Notes: generated from the sequence alone by a model not told the origin. A DNA stretch of 12,862 nt from Candidatus Thorarchaeota archaeon (GCA_038893995.1 JAWAQK010000061.1:1-12862); one strand, 5' to 3'; positions 780 through 11,548 are shown, counted from the first letter of the stretch. Translations and numbers: made by a program.

Positions 780-2381
780 ATGCAGTGGTGTCGGGTCGCG
801 TCCCTGCTGGTGAGTGTGCGTCAAGTCGCTCGCTCCGCTCTGGTGGATTCGCCCAGGTCTCGATCGCTCGTGAAGGCTCTCGTGACGGGGGTCCTCCTTC
901 TCGACCTATTCATCGTCCTGTTCGTCCTGGCTGTGATGGTCATCCGGCAGTCGTCTGCAGGGCTAGGCATGCTTGACTCCATTCCCCTTGCGTTGTATGT
1001 CCTGCCACTTACGATCATCATCCCATCTCTGTCGAGGGCCTGCTACCGTCTTCAGAATGGGCTTCTGTTCATTCTCATCATGTTGCTGGCGTCTGTCGTG
1101 CTGCTGACCGTGTCGGTCCTTGTACGTCTCCTGTTGCTGGTGTCTCTCCTGAACGTGATATCAGCTATACTCGTCTCTCTTGTGGCCGAGCTGAAACCGA
1201 GAGGTAGTCTGAGATCGGTTGGACGTCGTGGGCTTGTCTGGCTAGTCATTCTCAATCTGGTCGGGCTCATGTTTCCAGCATCAGTGTATCTCATGGGTCA
1301 GAATCCTATCACGACCGTCCGTGGTGGTCCGCCGGCTCACATCAGCCTTGAGGTACCCCTTGCACCATTCTCCCCCCAGACTGTGCCAGTGCCGCCAGAC
1401 GCCCAGCTTGTCAACGGCATCGAAGATGGTGATTTCGGGGTCACCCTCTGGGTCCTCGCACAGAGTGACGAGTCCATGGCCCTGCTGAGGGGCTGGATTG
1501 CCTCCCTGAGGAGCACTGAGGTACCAGTTGTCATTGTCATATCTGCCGACAGGGAAGCACACCTGTCCCCTGTTCCAGACACACTTGGCTCCACGGAGAC
1601 GACCATTCTCATTCTATCGGAGATCGGTGAGGCGATTGGAGATGTCGTGACTATCCTCAGTGAGGAGGGAATGCCTGCGGACCGCCTCTCCATCCTACTC
1701 GACCTGACCCTGTCTGACTCTGAGTTTGAAGTCCTGATGTCAAGGGTCCGCTCTATCGACCTGTTCGGATTTGCCTCGCTCTTCAGGGCCTCACTGGAGA
1801 GAGTAGATCTGACGATGGTAGCGCCCGTCCTTGATTCCGTAGTCGAGGAGGCGCGCTCTGCCGGCCTGAGGATTGGAGCAAGAGTGGAGGGGTATGTGAT
1901 AGACGATGCTCTTGACTCAGACGCTCTCTTCATGTTGACCTGCGGGCTGGACCTGAACATGCTCTCGCGACTGGATCTGGTCGAGCTGGACTGCCAGAGG
2001 TATCGCTACTCGATGCACATGGCCGGCGATGTCGGTGAGTATCTTGTTCATTCCTACTCTAGGACAGCCGCGATCAGTCCCCTGGGAGTCCCATGGACAC
2101 TGAGACTTGGTGTTGTTGACACTGACGCATACGACGACTGTTGTCTCTACTCACTGGCATCTCTTGTGAGCGATATTGTGATAGCTGGTGCTAACGGTGT
2201 CCAGAGGGTGACCGTCTCTTCTCTTGACGGTCTCACGGCAGGGCCTGGTGTGGACGGCGTGACAATGTTGAGGGCCGCACTGAATGCAGCCGGACCACAG
2301 GATATTACCTACACCTTCAGGATCTACGCCTTCAGGTCTATACTGATGGCCCTCGACACGCTTGATCCAGTGATGCTGTGA
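780..2381 (+). CDS. Hypothetical membrane protein (about 5 N-terminal TM helices plus a ~360-aa soluble alpha/beta domain)
   Basis: 533-aa ORF with several long hydrophobic segments in the first ~170 aa and no recognisable motif. Exact start uncertain. Confidence 0.8.
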   Translation: MQWCRVASLLVSVRQVARSALVDSPRSRSLVKALVTGVLLLDLFIVLFVLAVMVIRQSSAGLGMLDSIPLALYVLPLTIIIPSLSRACYRLQNGLLFILIMLLASVVLLTVSVLVRLLLLVSLLNVISAILVSLVAELKPRGSLRSVGRRGLVWLVILNLVGLMFPASVYLMGQNPITTVRGGPPAHISLEVPLAPFSPQTVPVPPDAQLVNGIEDGDFGVTLWVLAQSDESMALLRGWIASLRSTEVPVVIVISADREAHLSPVPDTLGSTETTILILSEIGEAIGDVVTILSEEGMPADRLSILLDLTLSDSEFEVLMSRVRSIDLFGFASLFRASLERVDLTMVAPVLDSVVEEARSAGLRIGARVEGYVIDDALDSDALFMLTCGLDLNMLSRLDLVELDCQRYRYSMHMAGDVGEYLVHSYSRTAAISPLGVPWTLRLGVVDTDAYDDCCLYSLASLVSDIVIAGANGVQRVTVSSLDGLTAGPGVDGVTMLRAALNAAGPQDITYTFRIYAFRSILMALDTLDPVML

Positions 2382-3600: not shown

Positions 3601-3855
3601 AGTCCTTCCGCGAGTCGTTACCTCGTGTTGCGGGAGTAGTCTCCAGGACTGGGTCGCGCCTGTGCCTCTGGCGGTCGTGACCATGTGCTGCGTCGCACGC
3701 CAGGCAGGCTCAGTGCATACAGGTGTCTCCGTCATAGCAGTGTCAGTCTAGCCTGAACATCCGTCATAGTAATGTTGATAGACTGTCTGACATTGGGTGA
3801 TGCAGAATGGACTCCCTCCCATGGTAGAGTACGTCCGCGACAGAGGCTGGTCCGA

Positions 3856-5802
3856 TTGATTCACAATGTCCTCATCATCGACAGTAAGGATGGTACTATT
3901 CTTGTCCGGGTCAGGTTCTGGAAGATCGATTTCCTTGAGCAACACGTGAACGAGTTCCTGATCGGGTACCGAGACCTCAAGGAGACAGAGGGCATCGCAG
4001 ACGACACTCCGATATTCGTGGACAAGCACAAGGTGTTTCACAGTCCGATCAACGACGACATGATCCTGTTGTTTGTGACCGACGGACGCGATGAGGATCG
4101 CGTGATAAGACACAAGGTGAGAGAGGGCGCCGCAAGAGTGGCCACAGCCCTGAGAGGGAGCACCATCAGCTACGTCCGTGACAACTTGAGTGACATCCTT
4201 GGAGAGCTCATCTTCACTCACTTCAAGGTCTCGTTCGTTGGGTCTGGTGGTGTCGGAAAGAGTACTCTGCTCAGGCTCCTGTTTGGCAAGGACCCGGCCC
4301 CGGGAGGATATGTGCCGACGATCAACGTATCAGTCGACTCGTCAGAGACAATCCAGTTTGGTACTTTCATGGTGACTATCTGGGACTTTGCAGGACAGGC
4401 GGTGTTTCAGGATCTATGGGGGTTCTACTTCCAGGGCACTGATATCATCTTCCTTGTCACCGACTCCAGTTTCCGCAACGTGATGCAGACCAAGACTCTG
4501 TTGAGGAGCATCCGGAAGGAGGCCCCCGCAGTACCACTGTTCATAGTCGCCAACAAGCAGGACCTCCCCGAGTCTATGAAGGCTGACAAGATTCAACGAC
4601 TGCTTGGAGCGCCAACCTTCCCAATGGTGGCCACTGACAGGTCTCGCAGGGAGGAGTTCATCAGGTTCATGCTTGAGGTTGCCGCCAAGACAGTTGGCGT
4701 TCAACTGCCAGATCTCCCATTGAGCGAGATGATCACAGTCCACAGGCGCTCCGAACCAGTCTCTGCCCCCGATGCCGAGGCAATCGAGAGGATGCGTAGT
4801 ACGCCGAGGGACCACGGTTTCGAGGATGTGCCCTGCGAAACTGAAGAGGAGCCGTGTGAGGCAGATTTACCTGCAGAGGATCTACCGGTTGAATCGACAG
4901 GTGAGGCTGTCACGCAGAGAGTCCCGGTCCACGAATCGACTGCCACAGATTCCGCTCCACAACCAGCCACATCAAAGATACTCCATCTCGCCCTGCTCCT
5001 GAGGAGAGAGGGCCTCTATGAACCAGTGTTCCACCTAGACTATGCCGAAGAGTCGTCATCAACGAGCTCGCTGGCTGGTGTGATCTCAGCCCTCGACTCG
5101 TTCAGCGGCATTGAGGCCGAGAGCGAGGATGGGACGGTCACCGATGCGCTCAGGACGATCAAACACGAGGGCAATCTTGTACTGGTCGAGAGGTCCAATC
5201 ACTTCATACTCGTCATGGTAGTGACCGGAAGTGCTGAAGACCGTCGACAGGTGCTGAGCTCCCTACTGACTGAGATTGAGGACATGTACCGTGACGTCTG
5301 GGACAACTGGAATGGTGATAAGAGCGTCTTCGAGACCTGTGTCTTCGCAGTGATCGATAGGATTCCCCTGAAACATGTGAGTCTCGACTACATGCTCAAG
5401 ACGCGCGAGGCGGGGAAGAACCTGCCCTTCTCGAACAGGGAGGTGGGCAGAGAGATCGTTGAGGTGCTGAGCGCAATAGAGCCGAACATGACCGTTGGTG
5501 GACTAGTGCGCGCCCTGGGTCTGCCGAGGGAGGTCGTGCTTGGTGCCCTCCAGATACTGGTCAAGTTTGGCTGGGTCGATTTCAGGGTCGAGGTCTTGCC
5601 GAGCAGCATGCTGAGGAAGATAGGTCCGGTCGACGAGGAGACGAGAAAGACCTACGGCGATGTCATAGTGAAGTTTGCAGACATGTGCGATGGGACTTCG
5701 ACTCTAGAGGAGGTCGCGAAGCGGGCCAATCTGAGTCTACCGGCCATGCGGTTCGTCGCTACCAAGCTAGTCCTCAATGGAGTACTTGAGATAGTGGTCT
5801 GA
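3856..5802 (+). CDS. Asgard-type multidomain small GTPase: longin - Arf-like GTPase - acidic linker - longin - 2x winged helix
   Basis: G1 GSGGVGKST (from 4240), G2 PT, G3 WDFAGQ (4381-4398), G4 NKQD (4552-4563). The start is re-called at TTG 3856 (MIHNVLIIDSKDG, resembling a longin first strand; GAGG upstream) instead of ATG 3772. A second longin-like block (LAGVISALDSF...YRDVWDNWNGDKSVF) and two wHTH-like repeats follow. Confidence 0.88.
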   Translation: MIHNVLIIDSKDGTILVRVRFWKIDFLEQHVNEFLIGYRDLKETEGIADDTPIFVDKHKVFHSPINDDMILLFVTDGRDEDRVIRHKVREGAARVATALRGSTISYVRDNLSDILGELIFTHFKVSFVGSGGVGKSTLLRLLFGKDPAPGGYVPTINVSVDSSETIQFGTFMVTIWDFAGQAVFQDLWGFYFQGTDIIFLVTDSSFRNVMQTKTLLRSIRKEAPAVPLFIVANKQDLPESMKADKIQRLLGAPTFPMVATDRSRREEFIRFMLEVAAKTVGVQLPDLPLSEMITVHRRSEPVSAPDAEAIERMRSTPRDHGFEDVPCETEEEPCEADLPAEDLPVESTGEAVTQRVPVHESTATDSAPQPATSKILHLALLLRREGLYEPVFHLDYAEESSSTSSLAGVISALDSFSGIEAESEDGTVTDALRTIKHEGNLVLVERSNHFILVMVVTGSAEDRRQVLSSLLTEIEDMYRDVWDNWNGDKSVFETCVFAVIDRIPLKHVSLDYMLKTREAGKNLPFSNREVGREIVEVLSAIEPNMTVGGLVRALGLPREVVLGALQILVKFGWVDFRVEVLPSSMLRKIGPVDEETRKTYGDVIVKFADMCDGTSTLEEVAKRANLSLPAMRFVATKLVLNGVLEIVV

Positions 5803-5809
5803 AGAGAGT

Positions 5810-7948
5810 TCAGACGTCAATGCTTATTCGTTCACCCGGTCTGGGTAGCATTATCTCGGGAGGTGGTCTCTGCTCCGGCGTGTGGACCATCACCCTCTTG
5901 CCACCACACGACATGATCCACTCCTCGAGCTTTCCTGAGGATGTGTGTGCTGAAAGTCTTGCGTATTCCACCCTGCATGCATGGCTCTCCAGTCCCTTGA
6001 GTAAGTTCCAGCCTGGTGTCCGAGGTGCAAGGTAACCACACAGGATCACGGCGGCATCAGGGTCGTTTCGGTATTCCTGGAATGTCGACCAGGCAAGACC
6101 TCCGCTCATCATACCGCCACCACTCACGAGCACGTCCTCCCTTTCGAGTGTCACCTTGTTCTTCTTGATGGCAGACCATCTGCCGCTGAGACCGCACACC
6201 TTTGTCACTCTGTCGGCCATTCCTGCTACTATGACATTTCTGCTCCCTGTGATGCCCATCCTCTCAAGCATCAGGAGGATCTCCTGAGCCCTGCCCACAG
6301 CAAAGCTGGGAATGATGACTGGTCCGTGGTCGGCAATGACCTCGGCAATCTGACCGGCCGCCCGGTCCCTGTCGAAGTCTTCGCGTTGCCAGTATGTTCC
6401 GTCGTAGATGGTCAGGTCACAGTCAGTGGGAAGGCTGGCCCCCTCGAACAGTGCGGAGCGCTCAGCATTGAAGTCGCCCGTATAGAGGATCCTCACCCCC
6501 TCTATGTCGATGATGAAGCCAGCGCTCCCCGGTATGTGAGACGCCGGTATGGGTGTGACCATGATACCGCCAGCCAGCTCGGCGGTCTTCCCATATTCGA
6601 GACTGACGTGTGAGTCCATGACCCTCCTCAGACTGGCTGCGCTGACCCCTCGCACAGGTTCCTCTGGCGGGATACGACCAGACGAGGTTGGCATCCCCAC
6701 CCTCATTGCGTCATCGAGTAGTATCGAGGATATTGGGCCAGTCAGCCCGACCGAGCACCAGTTGCCTCGATAGGTCTCGTACAGGATGGGTAGTCCTCCC
6801 ACATGGTCGAGATGGGCATGACTCACGAGCACACAGTCGACCATCTCGATCTCCGGAATCCAGCGTGGCACTCTCAGATTTGCCACAGACAGACCATAGT
6901 CCATCAGTATGCACGCCGTGTCAGTCCTGACCAGTATTCCGCTTCGTCCAATCTCTGTGCCAGCGAGGAAGAATACCTCGATCCTTCTGGTCTTTCTCGA
7001 GTAGACGACTGAACCCAGGAGACTCTTCCTCAGCCTGTCAGGGACCAACTCAAGGACTATCGTGTTCGAGAGCTCGATGGCCGGTGGTGCAGGCAGCCGG
7101 TGGAGATTGATGGGTAGGACGGAGCCGGGTCCCGAGCTGATGCCCTCGCGGATGAATACTCCCTCGACCTTGTCAATGGCATCCTCAACGCTATCTTCAG
7201 ATGTGATCTCTCTCTGAGCATTCGAATAGGCTCGTCTCAGGCAGGACGCCAGTACCTCCGATGACAGGCTGTCGGGTAGCCATTCTTGCGTCGCCTGCCT
7301 GAGGTCCACATACCTCCTTCCCTCTGTGGCCTCGTCGACGTAGGCCGGATGTCTGACTAGCGTGCTGACTAACCTGAAGTCCTCCTCCTGTAGGACTGAG
7401 TCGATATCAATCCCCGCGGAACGTGCCTCTTCTGCGAGGTCGCTGGGCAGACACAGTGAGATGCCGGTGTAGTCAATCCACTCCCTGACCCTCGACAGGA
7501 ACGGTCTGGGTTGTTCCTCGGAGGCTGCTGACAGGAAGACTATGGCTGACCTGACATGTCTCTCAATCGCGGTACTGTCGCGCCTGGTCGATAGCGAGAT
7601 GCGTACCAGGTATCTGAAGTCCTCCCTATCGTAGACTCCGACCAGGACGCCATAGGTGCAGAAAGATATGCAGTCCCTCAGGGTAGCCTCATCTGCTCCC
7701 CTGGCCTGTTGGAGATAGACGTTCTCCAGGCTCCGATACACATGTTCTCCGGTTGCCAGCCAGGAGGCATCTGCCCCGATGGCATGGCTCAGTGCACACA
7801 CGATCAGTTCTCCGGTCTCTCCAAACAGCCCTCTGAAGTCTGGATGCCTGCGTTCTGTCACACAGGCCAGTGCGTCGCGCAAGAGTCCTGCGATACGTGG
7901 GTTCTTGATCCTGTCAGCCAGGCTCCTCATTCTTTCTACGCTACTCAT
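5810..7948 (-). CDS. Metallo-beta-lactamase / beta-CASP ribonuclease (aCPSF2/YSH1-like) with a ~320-aa unknown N-terminal extension
   Basis: GTEIGRS, MDYG, SHAHLDHVGGLP (HxHxDH), SHIPGSA, YTGDF, DGTY, PSFAVGRAQE, SAH and VH motifs in the C-terminal ~390 aa. Confidence 0.9.
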   Translation of the reverse strand: MSSVERMRSLADRIKNPRIAGLLRDALACVTERRHPDFRGLFGETGELIVCALSHAIGADASWLATGEHVYRSLENVYLQQARGADEATLRDCISFCTYGVLVGVYDREDFRYLVRISLSTRRDSTAIERHVRSAIVFLSAASEEQPRPFLSRVREWIDYTGISLCLPSDLAEEARSAGIDIDSVLQEEDFRLVSTLVRHPAYVDEATEGRRYVDLRQATQEWLPDSLSSEVLASCLRRAYSNAQREITSEDSVEDAIDKVEGVFIREGISSGPGSVLPINLHRLPAPPAIELSNTIVLELVPDRLRKSLLGSVVYSRKTRRIEVFFLAGTEIGRSGILVRTDTACILMDYGLSVANLRVPRWIPEIEMVDCVLVSHAHLDHVGGLPILYETYRGNWCSVGLTGPISSILLDDAMRVGMPTSSGRIPPEEPVRGVSAASLRRVMDSHVSLEYGKTAELAGGIMVTPIPASHIPGSAGFIIDIEGVRILYTGDFNAERSALFEGASLPTDCDLTIYDGTYWQREDFDRDRAAGQIAEVIADHGPVIIPSFAVGRAQEILLMLERMGITGSRNVIVAGMADRVTKVCGLSGRWSAIKKNKVTLEREDVLVSGGGMMSGGLAWSTFQEYRNDPDAAVILCGYLAPRTPGWNLLKGLESHACRVEYARLSAHTSSGKLEEWIMSCGGKRVMVHTPEQRPPPEIMLPRPGERISIDV

Positions 7949-9026
7949 CTATGTAGACCTCCCCAGCGGTCGACGTCGTTCCAGACCTCGCTATTGCAAA
8001 TATTGACTGCCTGCTGTCTCTGAGCGACACACGTCGCGTGACCAGCCCCTCCGATATGAGTGTGGAGAGCGCGTGTCTGACGGTCCTTGCTGGTAACTTC
8101 GTCTCCTCGACAATCTCGCTCTGCGTCATGGAGTCTTGGTACTCGAGTACCTTCAGTACGAGTTTGGCGCTTGGTGGTAGGTCGTGTGGCACACTCTCAG
8201 GGGTCTGCGTTTTCCTCTGCAGCTTGCCCTGCAGCATCGCGACCCTCTCATCAGTCAGCTTCACCACGAGTGCATCGTGAGGAGACCTCATGATCTCTAT
8301 CGCTCTGTCCCTGATTGGTCTTCTTATCTGGCCATCGAGTACTGCCTCTACGGCCGTGCGTGGAGAGATCTCGCCCACTCCAATCCTGGTGGTGTCTGGA
8401 ACAATCAGGGGTCGTCTCATTGGGTTTCCACTGTTCACAGGTACTATGGCCACAACCCTTGCAGAGTTCAGTATGACAGGACCACCTACACTCATGGCGT
8501 AGGCCGTACTGCCTGTCGGAGTCGTGACAATGACTCCGTCAGCAGAGTCCTTCCAGACGCGTTCTCCGTCTATTGTGAGTGAGTAGGTGATCAGTGTAGC
8601 GCTTCTCTTGGCAAAGACCCCTATCTCATTGAGCACTGGAGGCGTCTGCTTTCCCGAGATTGTCGCAACAATTCGGGACCGGCGGTCCACACTCCACCTG
8701 CGTTGGACTATGTCATCAGCGACCGAGCTGAAGTTGTCTGCTGTCACATCGAACAGGAAGTCGGGTTGACCACGTGAGGCGACGGGAAGGATAGGTACTT
8801 CCCGGCTCCCGAGTCTGAGTAGTGTGTAGAGCAGGGTCCGGTCAGAGCCCACAACCAGCAGGAGGTCGACGTCCATGTGCTCCAGAGGTTCCCCGGACTC
8901 CCCTCTCTCTTGACCTATGAACTCATCAAGGACGACATCGACACCCCTCTCTCTGAGGGGAATGGCAATCCTGACCGCGTCCTCTATCATTCCTGCCTCG
9001 TGGCCGGACACGACCCCGACCTTCAA
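7941..9026 (-). CDS. NAD kinase-fold protein fused to a C-terminal winged-helix (MarR-like) DNA-binding domain
   Basis: NAD kinase motifs VLNEI, DGVIVTTPTGSTAYAMSVGGP and LDGQ are present; the GGDGT motif reads GSDRT (8835-8849). The C-terminal LPPSAKLVLKVLEYQDSMTQSEIVEETKLPARTVRHALSTLISEGLV...RDSRQSIF is an archaeal wHTH. Overlaps the RNase start by 8 nt. Confidence 0.9.
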   Translation of the reverse strand: MKVGVVSGHEAGMIEDAVRIAIPLRERGVDVVLDEFIGQERGESGEPLEHMDVDLLLVVGSDRTLLYTLLRLGSREVPILPVASRGQPDFLFDVTADNFSSVADDIVQRRWSVDRRSRIVATISGKQTPPVLNEIGVFAKRSATLITYSLTIDGERVWKDSADGVIVTTPTGSTAYAMSVGGPVILNSARVVAIVPVNSGNPMRRPLIVPDTTRIGVGEISPRTAVEAVLDGQIRRPIRDRAIEIMRSPHDALVVKLTDERVAMLQGKLQRKTQTPESVPHDLPPSAKLVLKVLEYQDSMTQSEIVEETKLPARTVRHALSTLISEGLVTRRVSLRDSRQSIFAIARSGTTSTAGEVYIDE

Positions 9027-9078
9027 TCGTCTATCGCCTCACGCATACTGAGATAGAGATGTCGATGAAAGCCAGTCC

Positions 9079-9085
9079 TATTAAA
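9079..9085 (-). promoter_or_regulatory. Probable TATA box of the NAD kinase-wHTH / RNase operon
   Basis: TTTAATA on the minus strand about 53 nt upstream of TTG 9026. Confidence 0.5.
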
Positions 9086-9099
9086 GGAAACCGAGTCGT

Positions 9100-9151
9100 C
9101 AAATGGCAAAAGTTGCCTGTTGCGCACACATCATGCATGTGTTGCCTGTTG
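9100..9151. promoter_or_regulatory. Two tandem imperfect 23-bp palindromes (consensus CAACAGGCAA-N3-TTGCCTGTTG); candidate operators
   Basis: 9100-9122 CAAATGGCAA-AAG-TTGCCTGTTG and 9129-9151 CATCATGCAT-GTG-TTGCCTGTTG. The right half-sites are identical, and the left halves match their reverse complement 8/10 and 7/10. Confidence 0.6.
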
Positions 9152-9159
9152 GAGTTCTG

Positions 9160-9165
9160 TTAAAT
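9160..9165 (+). promoter_or_regulatory. Probable TATA box of nadA
   Basis: TTAAAT about 36 nt upstream of ATG 9201. Confidence 0.45.
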
Positions 9166-9200
9166 GGGATTCTACCCAGTGCTCACTTGGTGCATCGTCT

Positions 9201-10160
9201 ATGAGACACAGGTCAAGGGCAGAGGGACTTCAGAAGACGGTCCTGAGGCTCAAGCGAGAGAACAATGCGCTGATCCTTGCCCACAACTATCAGCCTATCG
9301 AGATACAGCAGGTTGCTGACTTTGTGGGCGACTCACTTGAACTGGCGCGTCAGTCTGCCTCAGTGAACTCCTACGACGTCGTTGTGTTCGCCGGGGTCCG
9401 GTTCATGGCTGAGGTTGCAGCGATCCTGTCAGAGAAGACCCCCGTCTATCTGCCGAGACCTGACACACTCTGTCCGCTCGCGTCATGGCTGACTCCTGAG
9501 AAGGTCAGGGCCAAGAGGACAGAGTATCCCGATGTGCCCGTCGTCGTCTATGTGAACACCACTGCAGAGGTCAAGGCAGAGGCTGATGCCATATGCACGT
9601 CTGGCAATGCTATCCAGGTCATAGAGTCGCTCGATGCCGACACAGTACTGTTTGGTCCCGATGCCAGTCTCGCCGAGTATGTCCGGCGGCGGTCACATGT
9701 GCGCGTGATCGATCTGGAACCGCTCGGTCACTGCTACGTCCATCGCAGATTCAAGAGTGAGGACATCCTTGCCCTCAAGAGGTCATTCCCCGATGCAAGA
9801 GTCATAGCGCATCCAGAATGTGACGTCGATGTACAGGACATTGCAGACTACGTGTGCTCGACGGGGAGTATGGCGAGAGTGATCTCTGAGAGTCGTTTTG
9901 GACGCTTCATAGTGGCCACTGAGATCGGAATGGTTGAGCAGCTGAGGTCCATGTTTCCTGAGCGCGAGATAATGGCTGCAATGCCGGATGCGGTGTGCCT
10001 GCAGATGAAGAAGAACACGCTTGACGGAATAGTCCATGTACTACGGCACAGACCGCCCGAGAATCTGGTCACAGTTCCGCATGAGGTCGCTCAGCGTGTC
10101 AGAGTACTGATCGATAAGATGACCCAGACCGTCGCGTCTGCACCGGCGATGCGGTCATGA
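9201..10160 (+). CDS. nadA: Quinolinate synthase A
   Basis: LAHNYQ, DFVGDS, GVRFMAE, YVNT, HPEC and three 4Fe-4S cysteines (CPLA, HCYVH, CLQMK). The start is re-called at ATG 9201 because the 9120 extension overlaps the promoter and operators. Confidence 0.96.
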   Translation: MRHRSRAEGLQKTVLRLKRENNALILAHNYQPIEIQQVADFVGDSLELARQSASVNSYDVVVFAGVRFMAEVAAILSEKTPVYLPRPDTLCPLASWLTPEKVRAKRTEYPDVPVVVYVNTTAEVKAEADAICTSGNAIQVIESLDADTVLFGPDASLAEYVRRRSHVRVIDLEPLGHCYVHRRFKSEDILALKRSFPDARVIAHPECDVDVQDIADYVCSTGSMARVISESRFGRFIVATEIGMVEQLRSMFPEREIMAAMPDAVCLQMKKNTLDGIVHVLRHRPPENLVTVPHEVAQRVRVLIDKMTQTVASAPAMRS

Positions 10161-10823
10161 TGCCAACACGGATGAGCTGCATGTGCCTGTTATGATTGGA
10201 ACGGTCTCCGACAGGCGATGTACGACTGGACCCGAGTGACCCGCCCTGCGAAAGTCTTCCTCGCTGAAGATGCCCGTGAGCCCGATGAATCTGCAGAAGC
10301 CTCTCGATCTCTCAAAGTCCTTCAGAGAGTCCCCCACGAAGACGACCCTCTCGAGTCGTATCCTGTGTGTGTTGGCAACATACCTGAAGTGGTCTGCGCC
10401 CTTCTCAAAACCAGGCCTGTAGCCCATCACGTCCCTTATTAGCTGAACAAGACTGACCCGCCTGAAGTACTCGCGGATCGTACTCTCGAAGGTGGACGAT
10501 GAAACGAATACGAGTACGCCTGCGCGATTGAGTGCCTCCAGAGTAGGCCTCGTGTCCGGGAACAGTTTCTGTTCGTATATTCTCTCGATCTTCAGCCTCT
10601 CGAACTCCTCGACTGCGGCACGATTCCGGGGGTCCCCGGGGAAGTTGACCTCTATCTGGTGCTCATACGGGAGCCCAGTGGTAGTCCTGTATCGCTGAGT
10701 CGCGTCCTCGAACGTCACTCCGTAGTGCCTCGTCATGACGTCCACACCAATGGACTCCAGGAATCCCATGCTGTCGGCAAGTGTCCCGTCAAAGTCGAAT
10801 ATGACCGCATCGAAGGAATTCAA
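10155..10823 (-). CDS. HAD-superfamily hydrolase (subfamily IA, phosphoglycolate phosphatase-like)
   Basis: Motif I FDFDGTLADS, motif II VSSS, motif III K (FEKG), motif IV VGDSLKD. Convergent with nadA, with a 6-nt overlap. Confidence 0.92.
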   Translation of the reverse strand: MNSFDAVIFDFDGTLADSMGFLESIGVDVMTRHYGVTFEDATQRYRTTTGLPYEHQIEVNFPGDPRNRAAVEEFERLKIERIYEQKLFPDTRPTLEALNRAGVLVFVSSSTFESTIREYFRRVSLVQLIRDVMGYRPGFEKGADHFRYVANTHRIRLERVVFVGDSLKDFERSRGFCRFIGLTGIFSEEDFRRAGHSGPVVHRLSETVPIITGTCSSSVLAS

Positions 10824-10972: not shown

Positions 10973-11548
10973 ATGGGAAGGTCAGAGAGGCTCGATGTTG
11001 CATCCCTCTTCAGAGGGACCATCTCGGTGGCGCTATTGGTCGAGGTCGTCACCGGCATCATGATGCTCGGATCTGCAGCGGCATTCGTCATAAGCCGCTC
11101 AGGTCTGACACAGGTTGTCAACGAGGAAACGGCAGGTATCCTTCTCCTAGTTGGCGGGGTCATCACACTGATGTTCTTCCTCCTGACGATCAGTTTCTTT
11201 GTACGCGTGAGCAGAAGGATTGGCAGGATGGCCATATGGGATGGCAGTGCGGAGGTCGACCTGAAGCGTCCTGCAGCCAAGGCCGTTGTGACAATCTACG
11301 GGTCCGCCATAGGACTGGTCGTCATAATCGGGATGTATCTGTTCTACCTATTCTACAAGAACTACCTGCGGGAGATGGCGACGACATCGCTCAGCGTATT
11401 TGGTTTCTCAATTTCCCTGGCCGTGTTCCTCTTAGCCCTACTGCTTCAGCTTGTCGTGATAGTGATCGGACGTAGTGCGGCAAAGGTGATACGAACGGTC
11501 CTGGCCGAGGATGGGACCTCCGCAGAGAGGACAGCTGATGGGCAATAG
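10973..11548 (+). CDS. Hypothetical 4-TM membrane protein
   Basis: 191 aa with four hydrophobic segments in two hairpins; AAGGTGG SD-like element upstream. Confidence 0.85.
   Translation: MGRSERLDVASLFRGTISVALLVEVVTGIMMLGSAAAFVISRSGLTQVVNEETAGILLLVGGVITLMFFLLTISFFVRVSRRIGRMAIWDGSAEVDLKRPAAKAVVTIYGSAIGLVVIIGMYLFYLFYKNYLREMATTSLSVFGFSISLAVFLLALLLQLVVIVIGRSAAKVIRTVLAEDGTSAERTADGQ

What the first reader, a model, noticed from the sequence alone, without database searches (positions are those of the whole stretch)
7941..10160. Candidate NAD-sensing regulatory system: NAD-kinase-fold/wHTH fusion divergent from nadA
Seen: the protein keeps the NAD-binding motifs (NE, DG..TPTGSTAY..S.GGP), but GGDGT is GSDRT and the usual G.N.G.LGFL segment is PVASRGQPDFL. 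It carries a C-terminal wHTH and sits head-to-head with quinolinate synthase. Established: GGDG is the phosphate-binding/catalytic signature of NAD kinases, and the known NAD-pathway regulators (NadR, NiaR, NrtR, NadQ, Rex) use other sensor folds. Inference: the kinase domain has been repurposed, wholly or as a bifunctional enzyme, into an NAD(P) sensor for feedback control of de novo NAD synthesis. Similar fusions may exist in other archaea, but I know of no functional characterisation.
Basis: partly seen in the sequence, partly recalled or inferred. Interest (0 to 1): 0.8.

Follow-up and report, generated by a model that had tools for sequence, protein, structure and literature searches.

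The report
NAD-kinase-derived regulator of archaeal nadA
An Asgard (Thorarchaeota-type) archaeon carries a second, altered copy of NAD kinase fused to a DNA-binding winged helix, sitting head-to-head with the NAD-synthesis gene nadA across two conserved palindromes, so it is very probably an undescribed transcription factor that tunes NAD synthesis to the cell's NAD(P) level.

Summary
Window 7941-9026(-) encodes a 361-aa protein with a complete NAD kinase fold and a C-terminal MarR-like winged helix. GGDG reads GSDR, G.LGFL reads GQPDFL, and the NE and TPTGSTAY..GGP motifs are intact. It is divergent from nadA, whose true start is ATG 9201, not 9120.

- The genome has a separate canonical GGDGT NAD kinase, as do all 24 sampled genomes of the same family.
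- nadA lies head-to-head with the fusion in 19 of 20 related genomes, and also in Bathyarchaeota and Heimdallarchaeia.
- The spacer holds GGCAA-N3-TTGCC (9105-9117) and a second imperfect copy exactly 29 bp away (9134-9146), just upstream of the nadA TATA box.
- This composite site is unique in the genome. It is missing upstream of nadA in five relatives without the regulator, decayed in one where the regulator was deleted, and present at a second, unlinked nadA copy in another genome.
- Across 70 fused representatives, GGDG is intact in only 18, while NE/ND is kept in all 70.

Best reading: an NAD(P)-sensing transcription factor of nadA that also regulates itself. Repressor or activator, the ligand, and residual kinase activity remain untested. 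I found no paper on it. This scan reached the same reading on other genomes.

The parts
7941..9026 (-). Regulator gene: 361 aa, TTG start. NAD-kinase-like sensor domain plus a C-terminal winged helix.
   Evidence: The start is supported by conservation of the first beta-strand (KVGVVSG) and a GAGG Shine-Dalgarno-like motif upstream.
8256..9026 (-). NAD-kinase-fold domain (residues 1-257).
   Evidence: Pfam NAD_kinase_C 1.2e-20. Foldseek TM 0.84-0.89 to solved NAD kinases. The predicted homodimer interface uses residues 170-213.
8835..8849 (-). Altered GGDGT motif, read as G60-S61-D62-R63-T64.
   Evidence: Alignment A1: GSD(R/K) is family-wide, whereas the genome's canonical NAD kinase has GGDGT.
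7992..8174 (-). Winged helix-turn-helix (residues 285-345), nearly invariant across the family.
   Evidence: Pfam MarR_2 32.3 bits, HTH_24, HTH_IclR. Three helices plus a wing in the model. Conservation.
9080..9086 (-). Probable TATA box of the regulator's promoter (read on the minus strand).
   Evidence: A conserved CTTAAAT element sits at the same position in 17 related spacers. This is an inference from archaeal promoter architecture.
9105..9117 (.). Operator site 1: the perfect palindrome GGCAA-AAG-TTGCC.
   Evidence: At least 9 of 10 half-site bases match in all 18 Thor-type spacers. It is the only intergenic exact copy in the genome. The same motif occurs in Bathyarchaeota L065 and Heimdallarchaeia L072.
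9134..9146 (.). Operator site 2: the imperfect palindrome TGCAT-GTG-TTGCC (family consensus G(T/A)CAA-N3-TTGCC), 29 bp from site 1.
   Evidence: The 29-bp spacing holds in 17 of 18 loci. The composite position-weight matrix scores 37.9 here against 14.3 for the next best place in the genome.
9147..9166 (+). Promoter-proximal conserved box (TGTTGGAGTTCTG) plus the nadA TATA box TTAAAT (9160-9165).
   Evidence: Conserved as TTGAGATTCnGTTAAAA in all related spacers. It persists in genomes without the regulator.
9201..10160 (+). nadA, quinolinate synthase, the predicted regulated target (true start ATG 9201).
   Evidence: Pfam NadA 332.8 bits; NCBIfam NF006878 347 bits against a cut-off of 294. 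Start inferred.
5810..7948 (-). beta-CASP/metallo-beta-lactamase gene. It overlaps the regulator's stop codon by 8 nt and is probably co-transcribed.
   Evidence: It follows the regulator in 17 of 18 Thor-type loci.

Best explanation
The 361-aa protein is a transcription factor that evolved from NAD kinase. Its kinase-fold domain keeps the NAD(P)-binding pocket and the dimer interface. The glycine-rich phosphate loop (GGDG to GSDR) and the following G.LGFL segment have changed, so the domain most likely acts as a sensor of the NAD(P)(H) pool and no longer as the cell's NAD kinase; that job is done by a separate canonical paralogue.

As a dimer, or as a dimer of dimers, its two or four winged helices bind two GGCAA-N3-TTGCC palindromes spaced 29 bp apart. 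These lie between the divergent promoters of its own operon (regulator plus beta-CASP nuclease) and of nadA. Ligand occupancy changes DNA binding, so that quinolinate synthase, the Fe-S step of de novo NAD synthesis, is made when NAD(P) is low and shut down when it is high. I favour ligand-dependent repression (about 55:45) over ligand-relieved activation.

Shown: the domain make-up, the motif pattern, the co-occurrence with a canonical kinase, the synteny, and the conserved, genome-unique operator that tracks the regulator.
Inferred: DNA binding, ligand identity, the sign of regulation, and loss of catalysis.
For: 1. Domains and fold.
2. A canonical GGDGT NAD kinase is present elsewhere in the genome and in 24 of 24 genomes of the same family regardless of the fusion. 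The fusion is therefore not needed as the enzyme.
3. Family-wide GSD(R/K) and GQPDFL, with NE/ND, DG and TPTGSTAY..GGP kept and a nearly invariant wHTH. Across 70 fused representatives at 50% identity, GGDG is intact in 18, the Asp is kept in 59, and NE/ND in 70. Nearly all unfused relatives in the same list keep GGDG.
4. nadA is divergent in 19 of 20 relatives. The fusion also lies head-to-head with nadX-nadA (Bathyarchaeota), nadA, nadA-nadC (Heimdallarchaeum) and nadA-nadC-nadB.
5. The two-site operator keeps its 29-bp spacing in 17 of 18 spacers that are otherwise unalignable. It is unique in the own genome (37.9 against 14.3).
6. Across 41 genomes, all zero-mismatch composite matches lie at nadA. 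One is at a second nadA copy in G012 that is not linked to the regulator. The reversed control pattern gave 2 hits in total.
7. Five regulator-less relatives lack the operator upstream of nadA (scores -14 to 12, against 27-48). G020 shows a deleted regulator with a decaying site 1. No stand-alone orthologous wHTH exists in those genomes.
8. Fused members with intact GGDG (5 sampled) have no NAD de novo genes within 3-4 kb, whereas 7 of 8 degenerate non-Thor members do.
9. Predicted homodimer: ipSAE 0.49, best control 0.09. This mark was reached by 20 of 30 proteins solved as pairs of one chain and by 1 of 23 solved as single chains. The runs share at least 69% of contacts and the partner pLDDT is at least 78. 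The interface is the conserved region II that forms the NAD site across subunits in solved kinases (PMC8553519). Because NAD kinase dimers are solved, this pass may be from memory.
Against: - No experiment exists for any member.
- All five residues shown essential in M. tuberculosis Ppnk, including the catalytic Asp, are retained (D62, N133, E134, T174, Y176; PMC8553519). Kinase activity is therefore not excluded.
- Both operator sites lie upstream of the two TATA boxes. They do not lie over a TATA box or downstream of one, which is where many archaeal repressors bind, so activation is equally compatible.
- The right half of site 2 and the adjacent box persist upstream of nadA in genomes without the regulator. 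Part of 'site 2' may be core promoter.
- nadB and nadC of this genome lie in other operons without a site, so the predicted regulon is a single enzyme.
- Kin genomes are not independent, which inflates the counts.
Confidence: 0.72

Rival explanations
1. Bifunctional enzyme-regulator, as in RbkR or NadR. The protein is still an active NAD (or NADH) kinase. It uses substrate and product occupancy of its active site (ATP or NAD against NADP) to control DNA binding.
For: The catalytic Asp and all four other residues essential in Ppnk are kept. The fold is complete and confidently predicted. RbkR is a proven archaeal precedent for an active kinase fused to a wHTH (PMC5397151). Fused members with intact GGDGT exist, and in G031 the fusion is the only NAD-kinase-like gene found.
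Against: Two glycines of GGDG are replaced in the whole Thor family, and the G.LGFL segment is rewritten. GGDGT is present in 124 of 127 archaeal NAD kinases (PMC8553519). The motif drifts freely among fused representatives, and 11 of 70 have lost the Asp. A canonical kinase co-occurs in every genome of the same family sampled; this is the opposite of the complementary pattern used to argue that RbkR is bifunctional. All NCBIfam NAD kinase equivalog scores are far below their cut-offs (144.8 against 326).
Confidence: 0.2
2. A transcription factor of nadA that responds to something other than NAD(P) level. Candidates are the NADH/NAD+ redox ratio (Rex-like logic), ATP or polyphosphate energy status, or a pathway intermediate.
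For: NAD kinases bind ATP, polyphosphate, NADH and NADPH as well as NAD+ (PMC8553519, PMC9763689). The altered phosphate loop gains a basic residue (R, K or H) in about 30 of 52 degenerate representatives, which could change ligand preference. nadA is an oxygen-sensitive Fe-S enzyme, and in G012 the second regulated nadA sits next to a cysteine-desulfurase-like gene.
Against: The residues kept under the strongest constraint are those that recognise the adenine, the ribose and the nicotinamide of NAD (N133, E134, T174, Y176; PMC9763689). The only conserved target is an NAD-synthesis gene. No Rex-type or other sensor domain is present.
Confidence: 0.06
3. Not a regulator of nadA. The winged helix serves protein-protein contacts or general DNA association, and the head-to-head arrangement and palindromes are inherited synteny without function.
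For: The wHTH is also fused to apparently normal NAD kinases in DPANN archaea that have no NAD de novo genes nearby. Part of the spacer motif persists without the regulator.
Against: The spacers are unalignable except for the two palindromes at fixed spacing and the promoter boxes. The palindrome recurs in different phyla and at an unlinked nadA copy. It is lost where the regulator is lost. The recognition-helix region is nearly invariant.
Confidence: 0.02

Closest known systems
RbkR, the archaeal riboflavin kinase/wHTH regulator (Rodionova et al. 2017, PMC5397151)
   Same: An archaeal cofactor-pathway regulator built by fusing a kinase of that pathway to a MarR-like winged helix. It binds palindromic operators upstream of the biosynthesis genes and of its own gene, as a dimer, with the kinase domain as the sensor.
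   Different: The kinase fold is unrelated (cradle-loop barrel against the NAD kinase two-domain fold). In RbkR the wHTH is N-terminal; here it is C-terminal. RbkR is an active kinase that never co-occurs with stand-alone RibK. Here the signature motif is altered and a canonical NAD kinase co-occurs in every genome of the same family sampled.
NrtR, the Nudix-related NAD regulator of bacteria (Rodionov et al. 2008, PMC2330246; PMC6800001)
   Same: An enzyme-derived sensor domain followed by a C-terminal wHTH. It controls NAD de novo and salvage genes and often regulates itself. Some members are catalytic remnants.
   Different: Its sensor is a Nudix fold that binds ADP-ribose, and it is bacterial. 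There is no sequence or fold relation to the NAD kinase domain (one search shows no Nudix match).
NadR of Enterobacteria and NiaR of Bacillus/Clostridium
   Same: Feedback regulators of nadA/nadB that respond to NAD or niacin. NadR also joins a DNA-binding domain to NAD-pathway enzyme domains.
   Different: NadR has an N-terminal HTH plus NMN adenylyltransferase and ribosylnicotinamide kinase domains. NiaR has an HTH plus a 3H domain. Both are bacterial, and neither fold is present here.
Canonical NAD kinase (NadK/Ppnk; for example PDB 7MH7, 1SUW, 1U0R)
   Same: Same fold (TM 0.84-0.89). The NE/D motif, conserved region II and the dimer interface are kept.
   Different: GGDG reads GSDR and G.LGFL reads GQPDFL. 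The protein carries an extra 100-aa linker plus wHTH, scores below every NCBIfam equivalog cut-off, and is a paralogue beside the real kinase.
ThiR, the archaeal thiamine regulator with a ThiN-like sensor (Rodionov et al. 2017, J Bacteriol; recalled from memory, the paper is not in the searchable library)
   Same: As I recall it, a degenerate copy of a pathway enzyme fused to a DNA-binding domain serves as the ligand sensor, beside an active paralogue.
   Different: Different pathway, fold and domain order. I could not check this against the paper.

Membership tests
NAD kinase (EC 2.7.1.23, Pfam PF01513 + PF20143) | Two-domain NAD kinase fold | tested here: met
   AF2 model with pLDDT 91.3. 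Foldseek E 6e-28 and TM 0.84-0.89 to 7MH7, 4HAO and 1SUW.
NAD kinase (EC 2.7.1.23, Pfam PF01513 + PF20143) | GGDG motif intact (GGDGT in 124 of 127 archaeal enzymes, PMC8553519) | tested here: not met
   The motif reads GSDRT, and GSD(R/K) is family-wide. The Asp itself is kept.
NAD kinase (EC 2.7.1.23, Pfam PF01513 + PF20143) | [quoted passage not shown] | tested here: met
   N133-E134 and D163...TPTGSTAY...GGPV184 are present.
NAD kinase (EC 2.7.1.23, Pfam PF01513 + PF20143) | Scores above the curated family cut-offs | tested here: not met
   The best NCBIfam equivalog scores 144.8 bits against a cut-off of 326. Pfam PF01513 scores 24.6 against 25.5. PF20143 passes.
NAD kinase (EC 2.7.1.23, Pfam PF01513 + PF20143) | Phosphorylates NAD with ATP or polyphosphate | not testable with these tools
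   This needs an enzyme assay. A canonical paralogue exists at G000:C63.
MarR-type winged-helix transcription factors | wHTH DNA-binding domain | tested here: met
   Pfam MarR_2 at 32.3 bits (cut-off 27), HTH_24 and HTH_IclR at their cut-offs. The model shows three helices plus a beta wing at residues 285-345.
MarR-type winged-helix transcription factors | Dimer that binds a palindromic operator near the regulated promoter | tested here: inconclusive
   Conserved palindromes track the gene. The homodimer prediction gave 0.49 against a best control of 0.09 (the mark was reached by 20 of 30 solved pairs of one chain and 1 of 23 single chains). DNA binding itself was not measured.
RbkR-like bifunctional kinase/regulators of Archaea | Pathway kinase domain fused to a wHTH, with an operator upstream of pathway genes and of its own gene | tested here: met
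   The kinase fold and the domain order differ from RbkR.
RbkR-like bifunctional kinase/regulators of Archaea | Complementary phyletic pattern with the stand-alone kinase (the fusion is the only kinase) | tested here: not met
   The canonical NAD kinase co-occurs in the own genome and in all 16 fusion-bearing genomes of the same family. Only the outlier G031 fits the RbkR pattern.
RbkR-like bifunctional kinase/regulators of Archaea | Substrate- and product-binding residues all conserved | tested here: not met
   The NAD-binding residues are kept, but the GGDG phosphate loop and the G.LGFL segment are altered.
NrtR / NadR / NiaR / Rex (known NAD-related regulators) | Nudix, NMNAT/RNK, 3H or Rex Rossmann sensor domain | tested here: not met
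   Pfam and NCBIfam scans of the protein list only NAD kinase and wHTH families.

The most novel reading that the evidence does not exclude
A pseudo-kinase switch. NADP(H) or NAD binding to the remodelled active site, where an Arg, Lys or His has replaced the fourth glycine of GGDG and would lie where the transferred phosphate sits, drives a dimer-to-tetramer transition of the kind that feedback-inhibits true NAD kinases. That transition lets four winged helices clamp the two operators 29 bp apart. This would be the first NAD regulon factor of Archaea. It would also give a visible evolutionary series: active NAD kinase-wHTH fusions (DPANN, G031) leading to a duplicated sensor locked to nadA in Asgard, Bathyarchaeota and other archaea.
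Probability: 0.3. Interest if true: 0.8.

Novelty: new variant of a known kind. Interest (0 to 1): 0.72.

Why it matters
A 2019 paper counts three types of regulatory system for NAD+ biosynthesis and salvage (NadR, NiaR and NrtR; PMC6800001), and my searches found none described for Archaea. This family would fill that gap for Asgard archaea, Bathyarchaeota and other lineages. About 70 clusters at 50% identity carry the fusion.

It adds the NAD kinase fold to the short list of enzymes recruited as ligand sensors of transcription factors. It also offers a natural series from apparently active fusion to sensor paralogue.

In practice, hundreds of database entries now named 'NAD(+)/NADH kinase' or 'sugar kinase' are probably regulators. 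The operator GGCAA-N3-TTGCC gives a ready handle for EMSA and for a possible NAD(P)-responsive genetic switch.

Tried and rejected
- Wider regulon in the own genome. The four other exact GGCAA-N3-TTGCC copies all lie inside long ORFs. nadB (C51) and nadC (C2) sit inside other operons without a site. I therefore dropped the idea of a multi-gene NAD regulon here.
- Aspartate dehydrogenase (nadX) was not found in the own genome, which is 91% complete.
- Stand-alone wHTH in regulator-less relatives. Only generic wHTH proteins at 32-42% identity turned up, so a split form is rejected.
- Genome-contig scan with the family alignment. Only three fused loci were gained.
- Tree of fused and unfused kinase domains. 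Only the quick tree finished. Unfused enzymes form a clade with 100% support and the degenerate fusions cluster apart from it, but the deep order and the root are unresolved. I make no claim about direction from the tree alone.
- The sigma-70 promoter and terminator scan is irrelevant for an archaeon and gave nothing above chance.
- Literature searches for an NAD-kinase-derived regulator returned nothing relevant. The ThiR paper is not in the searchable library.
- No solved structure joins an NAD kinase to a wHTH.
- I did not use sequencing-run or read tools, because expression data for an uncultured sediment archaeon seemed unlikely to resolve transcription start sites.

Full report
**What is there**

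The window is a whole 12.9-kb contig (G000:C61) of a 2.33-Mb, 91%-complete genome. The closest database relatives of its proteins are named Candidatus Thorarchaeota.

The ORF 7941-9026(-) encodes 361 aa. Pfam finds NAD_kinase_C (1.2e-20, residues 132-256) and a MarR_2 winged helix (32.3 bits, residues 281-340). The N-terminal NAD_kinase domain scores just under its cut-off (24.6 against 25.5 bits). Every NCBIfam NAD kinase equivalog scores far below its cut-off, the best being 144.8 against 326.

An AlphaFold2 model built on an 83-sequence alignment has mean pLDDT 91.3. It shows a complete kinase fold (residues 1-257), a low-confidence linker (258-283) and a three-helix wHTH with a wing (285-345). 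Foldseek places the kinase part on solved NAD kinases at TM 0.84-0.89. No solved structure carries the added wHTH.

- GGDGT reads G60-S-D-R-T64.
- The G.N.G.LGFL segment reads PVASRGQPDFL.
- N133-E134 and D163-G...TPTGSTAY..S.GGP183 are intact.

The divergent gene is nadA (Pfam 332.8 bits; NCBIfam 347 against a cut-off of 294). Its start is ATG 9201, not the TTG at 9120. The 81 bases in between hold the operator, a TATA box (9160-9165) and a GGTG Shine-Dalgarno-like motif.

**Is it the cell's NAD kinase? No.**

The genome has a canonical 290-aa NAD kinase on contig C63, with GGDGT, NRGTVGFL and TPCGSTAY. It also has a third, COG3199-like 377-aa relative on C4.

The canonical enzyme was found in all 24 sampled genomes of the same family, at 53-65% identity, whether or not they carry the fusion. 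This is the opposite of the complementary pattern that was used to argue that RbkR is bifunctional (PMC5397151).

**The family**

More than 120 clusters at 90% identity share 52-61% identity with the query over its full length. Sources call them NAD kinase, sugar kinase, hypothetical protein, or wHTH/MarR regulator.

In 24 of them:
- GSD(R/K) and P(I/V)LP(V/I)(A/S)S.GQPDFLFD are family-wide.
- The NAD-site motifs are kept.
- The wHTH is nearly invariant (LPPSAKLVLKVLEY...RTVRYALS...SLRDSRQG).

An exhaustive search of 1.84 billion representatives found about 70 full-length fused clusters at 50% identity. Named members come from Bathyarchaeota, Micrarchaeota and Diapherotrites, and from Nitrososphaerales and Heimdallarchaeum.

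Across these 70 fused representatives:

| Feature | Kept in |
|---|---|
| GGDG intact | 18 of 70 |
| Asp at position 3 of the motif | 59 of 70 |
| NE/ND | 70 of 70 |
| DG | 63 of 70 |
| TPTGST(A/G)Y | most |

Nearly all unfused relatives in the same list keep GGDG. So the phosphate loop is under relaxed or altered constraint, while the residues that read the adenine, ribose and nicotinamide of NAD stay fixed (PMC9763689; PMC8553519).

One caveat matters. The five residues shown essential in M. tuberculosis Ppnk (D85, N159, E160, T200, Y202) are all present here (D62, N133, E134, T174, Y176). Residual activity therefore cannot be excluded.

**Link to NAD synthesis**

Among 41 related genomes, 20 carry the fusion. 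In 19 of those 20, nadA lies head-to-head with it.

The link crosses phyla:
- A Bathyarchaeota member (GGDS) faces a nadX-nadA operon.
- Another lineage (GNDR) faces nadA.
- Heimdallarchaeum (GDTG) faces nadA-nadC.
- A GDDN member faces nadA-nadC-nadB.
- Two more degenerate members have nadA or nadC within 2 kb.

By contrast, five fused members with intact GGDG have no NAD de novo genes within 3-4 kb. These come from Micrarchaeota, Diapherotrites, two unnamed sources, and genome G031, where the fusion is the only NAD-kinase-like gene found.

**The operator**

The spacers of 18 Thor-type loci cannot be aligned except for a fixed set of elements:
- the regulator's TATA box (CTTAAAT on the minus strand);
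- a palindrome GGCAA-N3-TTGCC (site 1; at least 9 of 10 bases in all 18 loci; window 9105-9117);
- a second site G(T/A)CAA-N3-TTGCC exactly 29 bp further on in 17 of 18 loci (window 9134-9146);
- the box TTGAGATTCnG;
- the nadA TATA box.

A position-weight matrix of the composite scores 37.9 at this place, against 14.3 for the next best place in the 2.33-Mb genome. The four other exact palindromes in the genome lie inside long ORFs.

The same palindrome appears in the Bathyarchaeota spacer (GGCAAATATTGCC), in the GNDR lineage and in Heimdallarchaeum (AGCAAAAATTGCC).

A pattern search over the 41 genomes found zero-mismatch composites only at nadA. The reversed control pattern gave two hits in all. 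One of the real hits lies 48 bp upstream of a second nadA copy in G012. That copy is on another contig from the regulator, next to a class-V aminotransferase gene. This argues for action in trans on nadA itself.

Five family genomes have nadA but no regulator, and they lack the composite (scores -14 to 12, against 27-48). In G020 the regulator gene is deleted, and a decayed site 1 (GGTAAAAGATGCC) remains between the beta-CASP gene and nadA. Two genomes of one genus lack both nadA and the regulator. No stand-alone orthologous wHTH hides in the regulator-less genomes.

**Mechanism**

NAD kinases form their NAD site across a homodimer interface (PMC8553519). Mammalian NADK is feedback-inhibited by NADP(H) through tetramerisation (PMC9763689).

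A homodimer prediction for this protein gave ipSAE 0.49 against 0.09 for the best control. The mark was reached by 20 of 30 proteins solved as pairs of one chain and by 1 of 23 solved as single chains. The runs agree in at least 69% of contacts, and the partner pLDDT is at least 78. The interface uses residues 170-213, that is, conserved region II. Because NAD kinase dimers are solved, this pass may be from memory.

Two palindromes at fixed spacing fit two dimers or one tetramer. Both sites lie upstream of the two TATA boxes: site 2 ends 13 bp before the nadA TATA, and site 1 begins 18 bp beyond the regulator's TATA. Position alone therefore does not separate a repressor from an activator.

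The repeated, apparently harmless loss of the regulator (absent from 8 of the 24 genomes of the same family; six of these still have nadA) fits a repressor slightly better. Also, the right half of site 2 and the adjacent box persist without the regulator, so that stretch may be core promoter.

In this genome nadB and nadC lie elsewhere without sites. The predicted regulon is therefore nadA plus the regulator's own operon. That operon seems to include the beta-CASP nuclease, which overlaps the regulator's stop by 8 nt and follows the regulator in 17 of 18 Thor-type loci.

**Evolution**

A quick maximum-likelihood tree of the kinase domains puts 49 of the 55 unfused enzymes, including this genome's canonical kinase, in one clade with 100% support. 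The degenerate fusions cluster apart from it. GGDG-intact fusions are scattered at poorly supported basal positions. The root and the deep order are unresolved.

I take from the tree only that the regulator is an old paralogue and did not arise by a recent duplication. The order 'active fusion first, sensor later' is plausible but not shown.

**Comparison and novelty**

The logic is that of RbkR (riboflavin kinase plus wHTH in Archaea), NrtR (Nudix plus wHTH) and NadR. The NAD kinase fold has not, as far as I could find, been described as the sensor of a transcription factor, and I found no NAD-synthesis regulator described for Archaea. Five full-text searches returned nothing relevant. A 2019 paper lists only NadR, NiaR and NrtR (PMC6800001).

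This scan has flagged the same fusion on many other genomes, and two follow-up reports reached the same reading. I re-derived the evidence here independently.

I class it as a new variant of a known kind: an enzyme-derived ligand sensor fused to a wHTH that controls its own cofactor pathway. The comparative evidence is strong, and no experiment has been done.

Noticed in passing
window 5810-7948 (-): A 712-aa beta-CASP/metallo-beta-lactamase protein whose first ~320 residues have no Pfam match. It overlaps the regulator's stop codon by 8 nt and follows the regulator in 17 of 18 Thor-type loci and in L066 and L070, so it looks co-transcribed. Any functional tie to NAD control is unknown.
   Followed up: partly
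L156:2584-2625 and L156:2679-3620 (G012:C34): One relative has a second nadA copy far from the regulator. It carries a full two-site operator 48 bp upstream and is divergent from a class-V aminotransferase (cysteine-desulfurase-like) gene followed by a ThiI gene.
   Followed up: yes
L049:1290-1500 (G020:C16): The regulator gene is deleted here. The beta-CASP gene now sits directly head-to-head with nadA. Site 1 has decayed to GGTAAAAGATGCC while site 2 and the promoter box are intact.
   Followed up: yes
L039, L041, L043, L045, L053 (nadA upstream regions of regulator-less relatives): The box TTGCC-NN-TTGAGATT-N3-TTAAAA persists upstream of nadA without the regulator. It may be an unusual BRE or core promoter, or the target of another factor.
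   Followed up: partly
L025:1468-2511 (G031), L068, L161, L162, L163: NAD kinase-wHTH fusions with intact GGDGT and G.LGFL, from Micrarchaeota, Diapherotrites and others, are not near NAD genes. In G031 the fusion is the only NAD-kinase-like gene found. What the winged helix does in these is unknown.
   Followed up: partly
window 3772-5802 (+): A 676-aa protein with an Arf/Roc/Ras-type small GTPase domain at residues 149-311 and long unmatched flanks. The same neighbour recurs in the related locus L066.
   Followed up: no
G000:C4 (L003:781-1914): A third NAD-kinase-like gene (377 aa, GGDGT kept, atypical longer architecture), followed by a 254-aa gene. It was not examined further.
   Followed up: no
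window 780-2381 (+) and 10973-11548 (+): ORFs of 533 aa and 191 aa with no Pfam or NCBIfam match.
   Followed up: no
window 10155-10823 (-); L025:2508-3203: A HAD-family hydrolase lies tail-to-tail with nadA here. A HAD hydrolase also abuts the GGDG-intact fusion in G031. A link to NAD(P) or nucleotide phosphatase activity is possible but untested.
   Followed up: no
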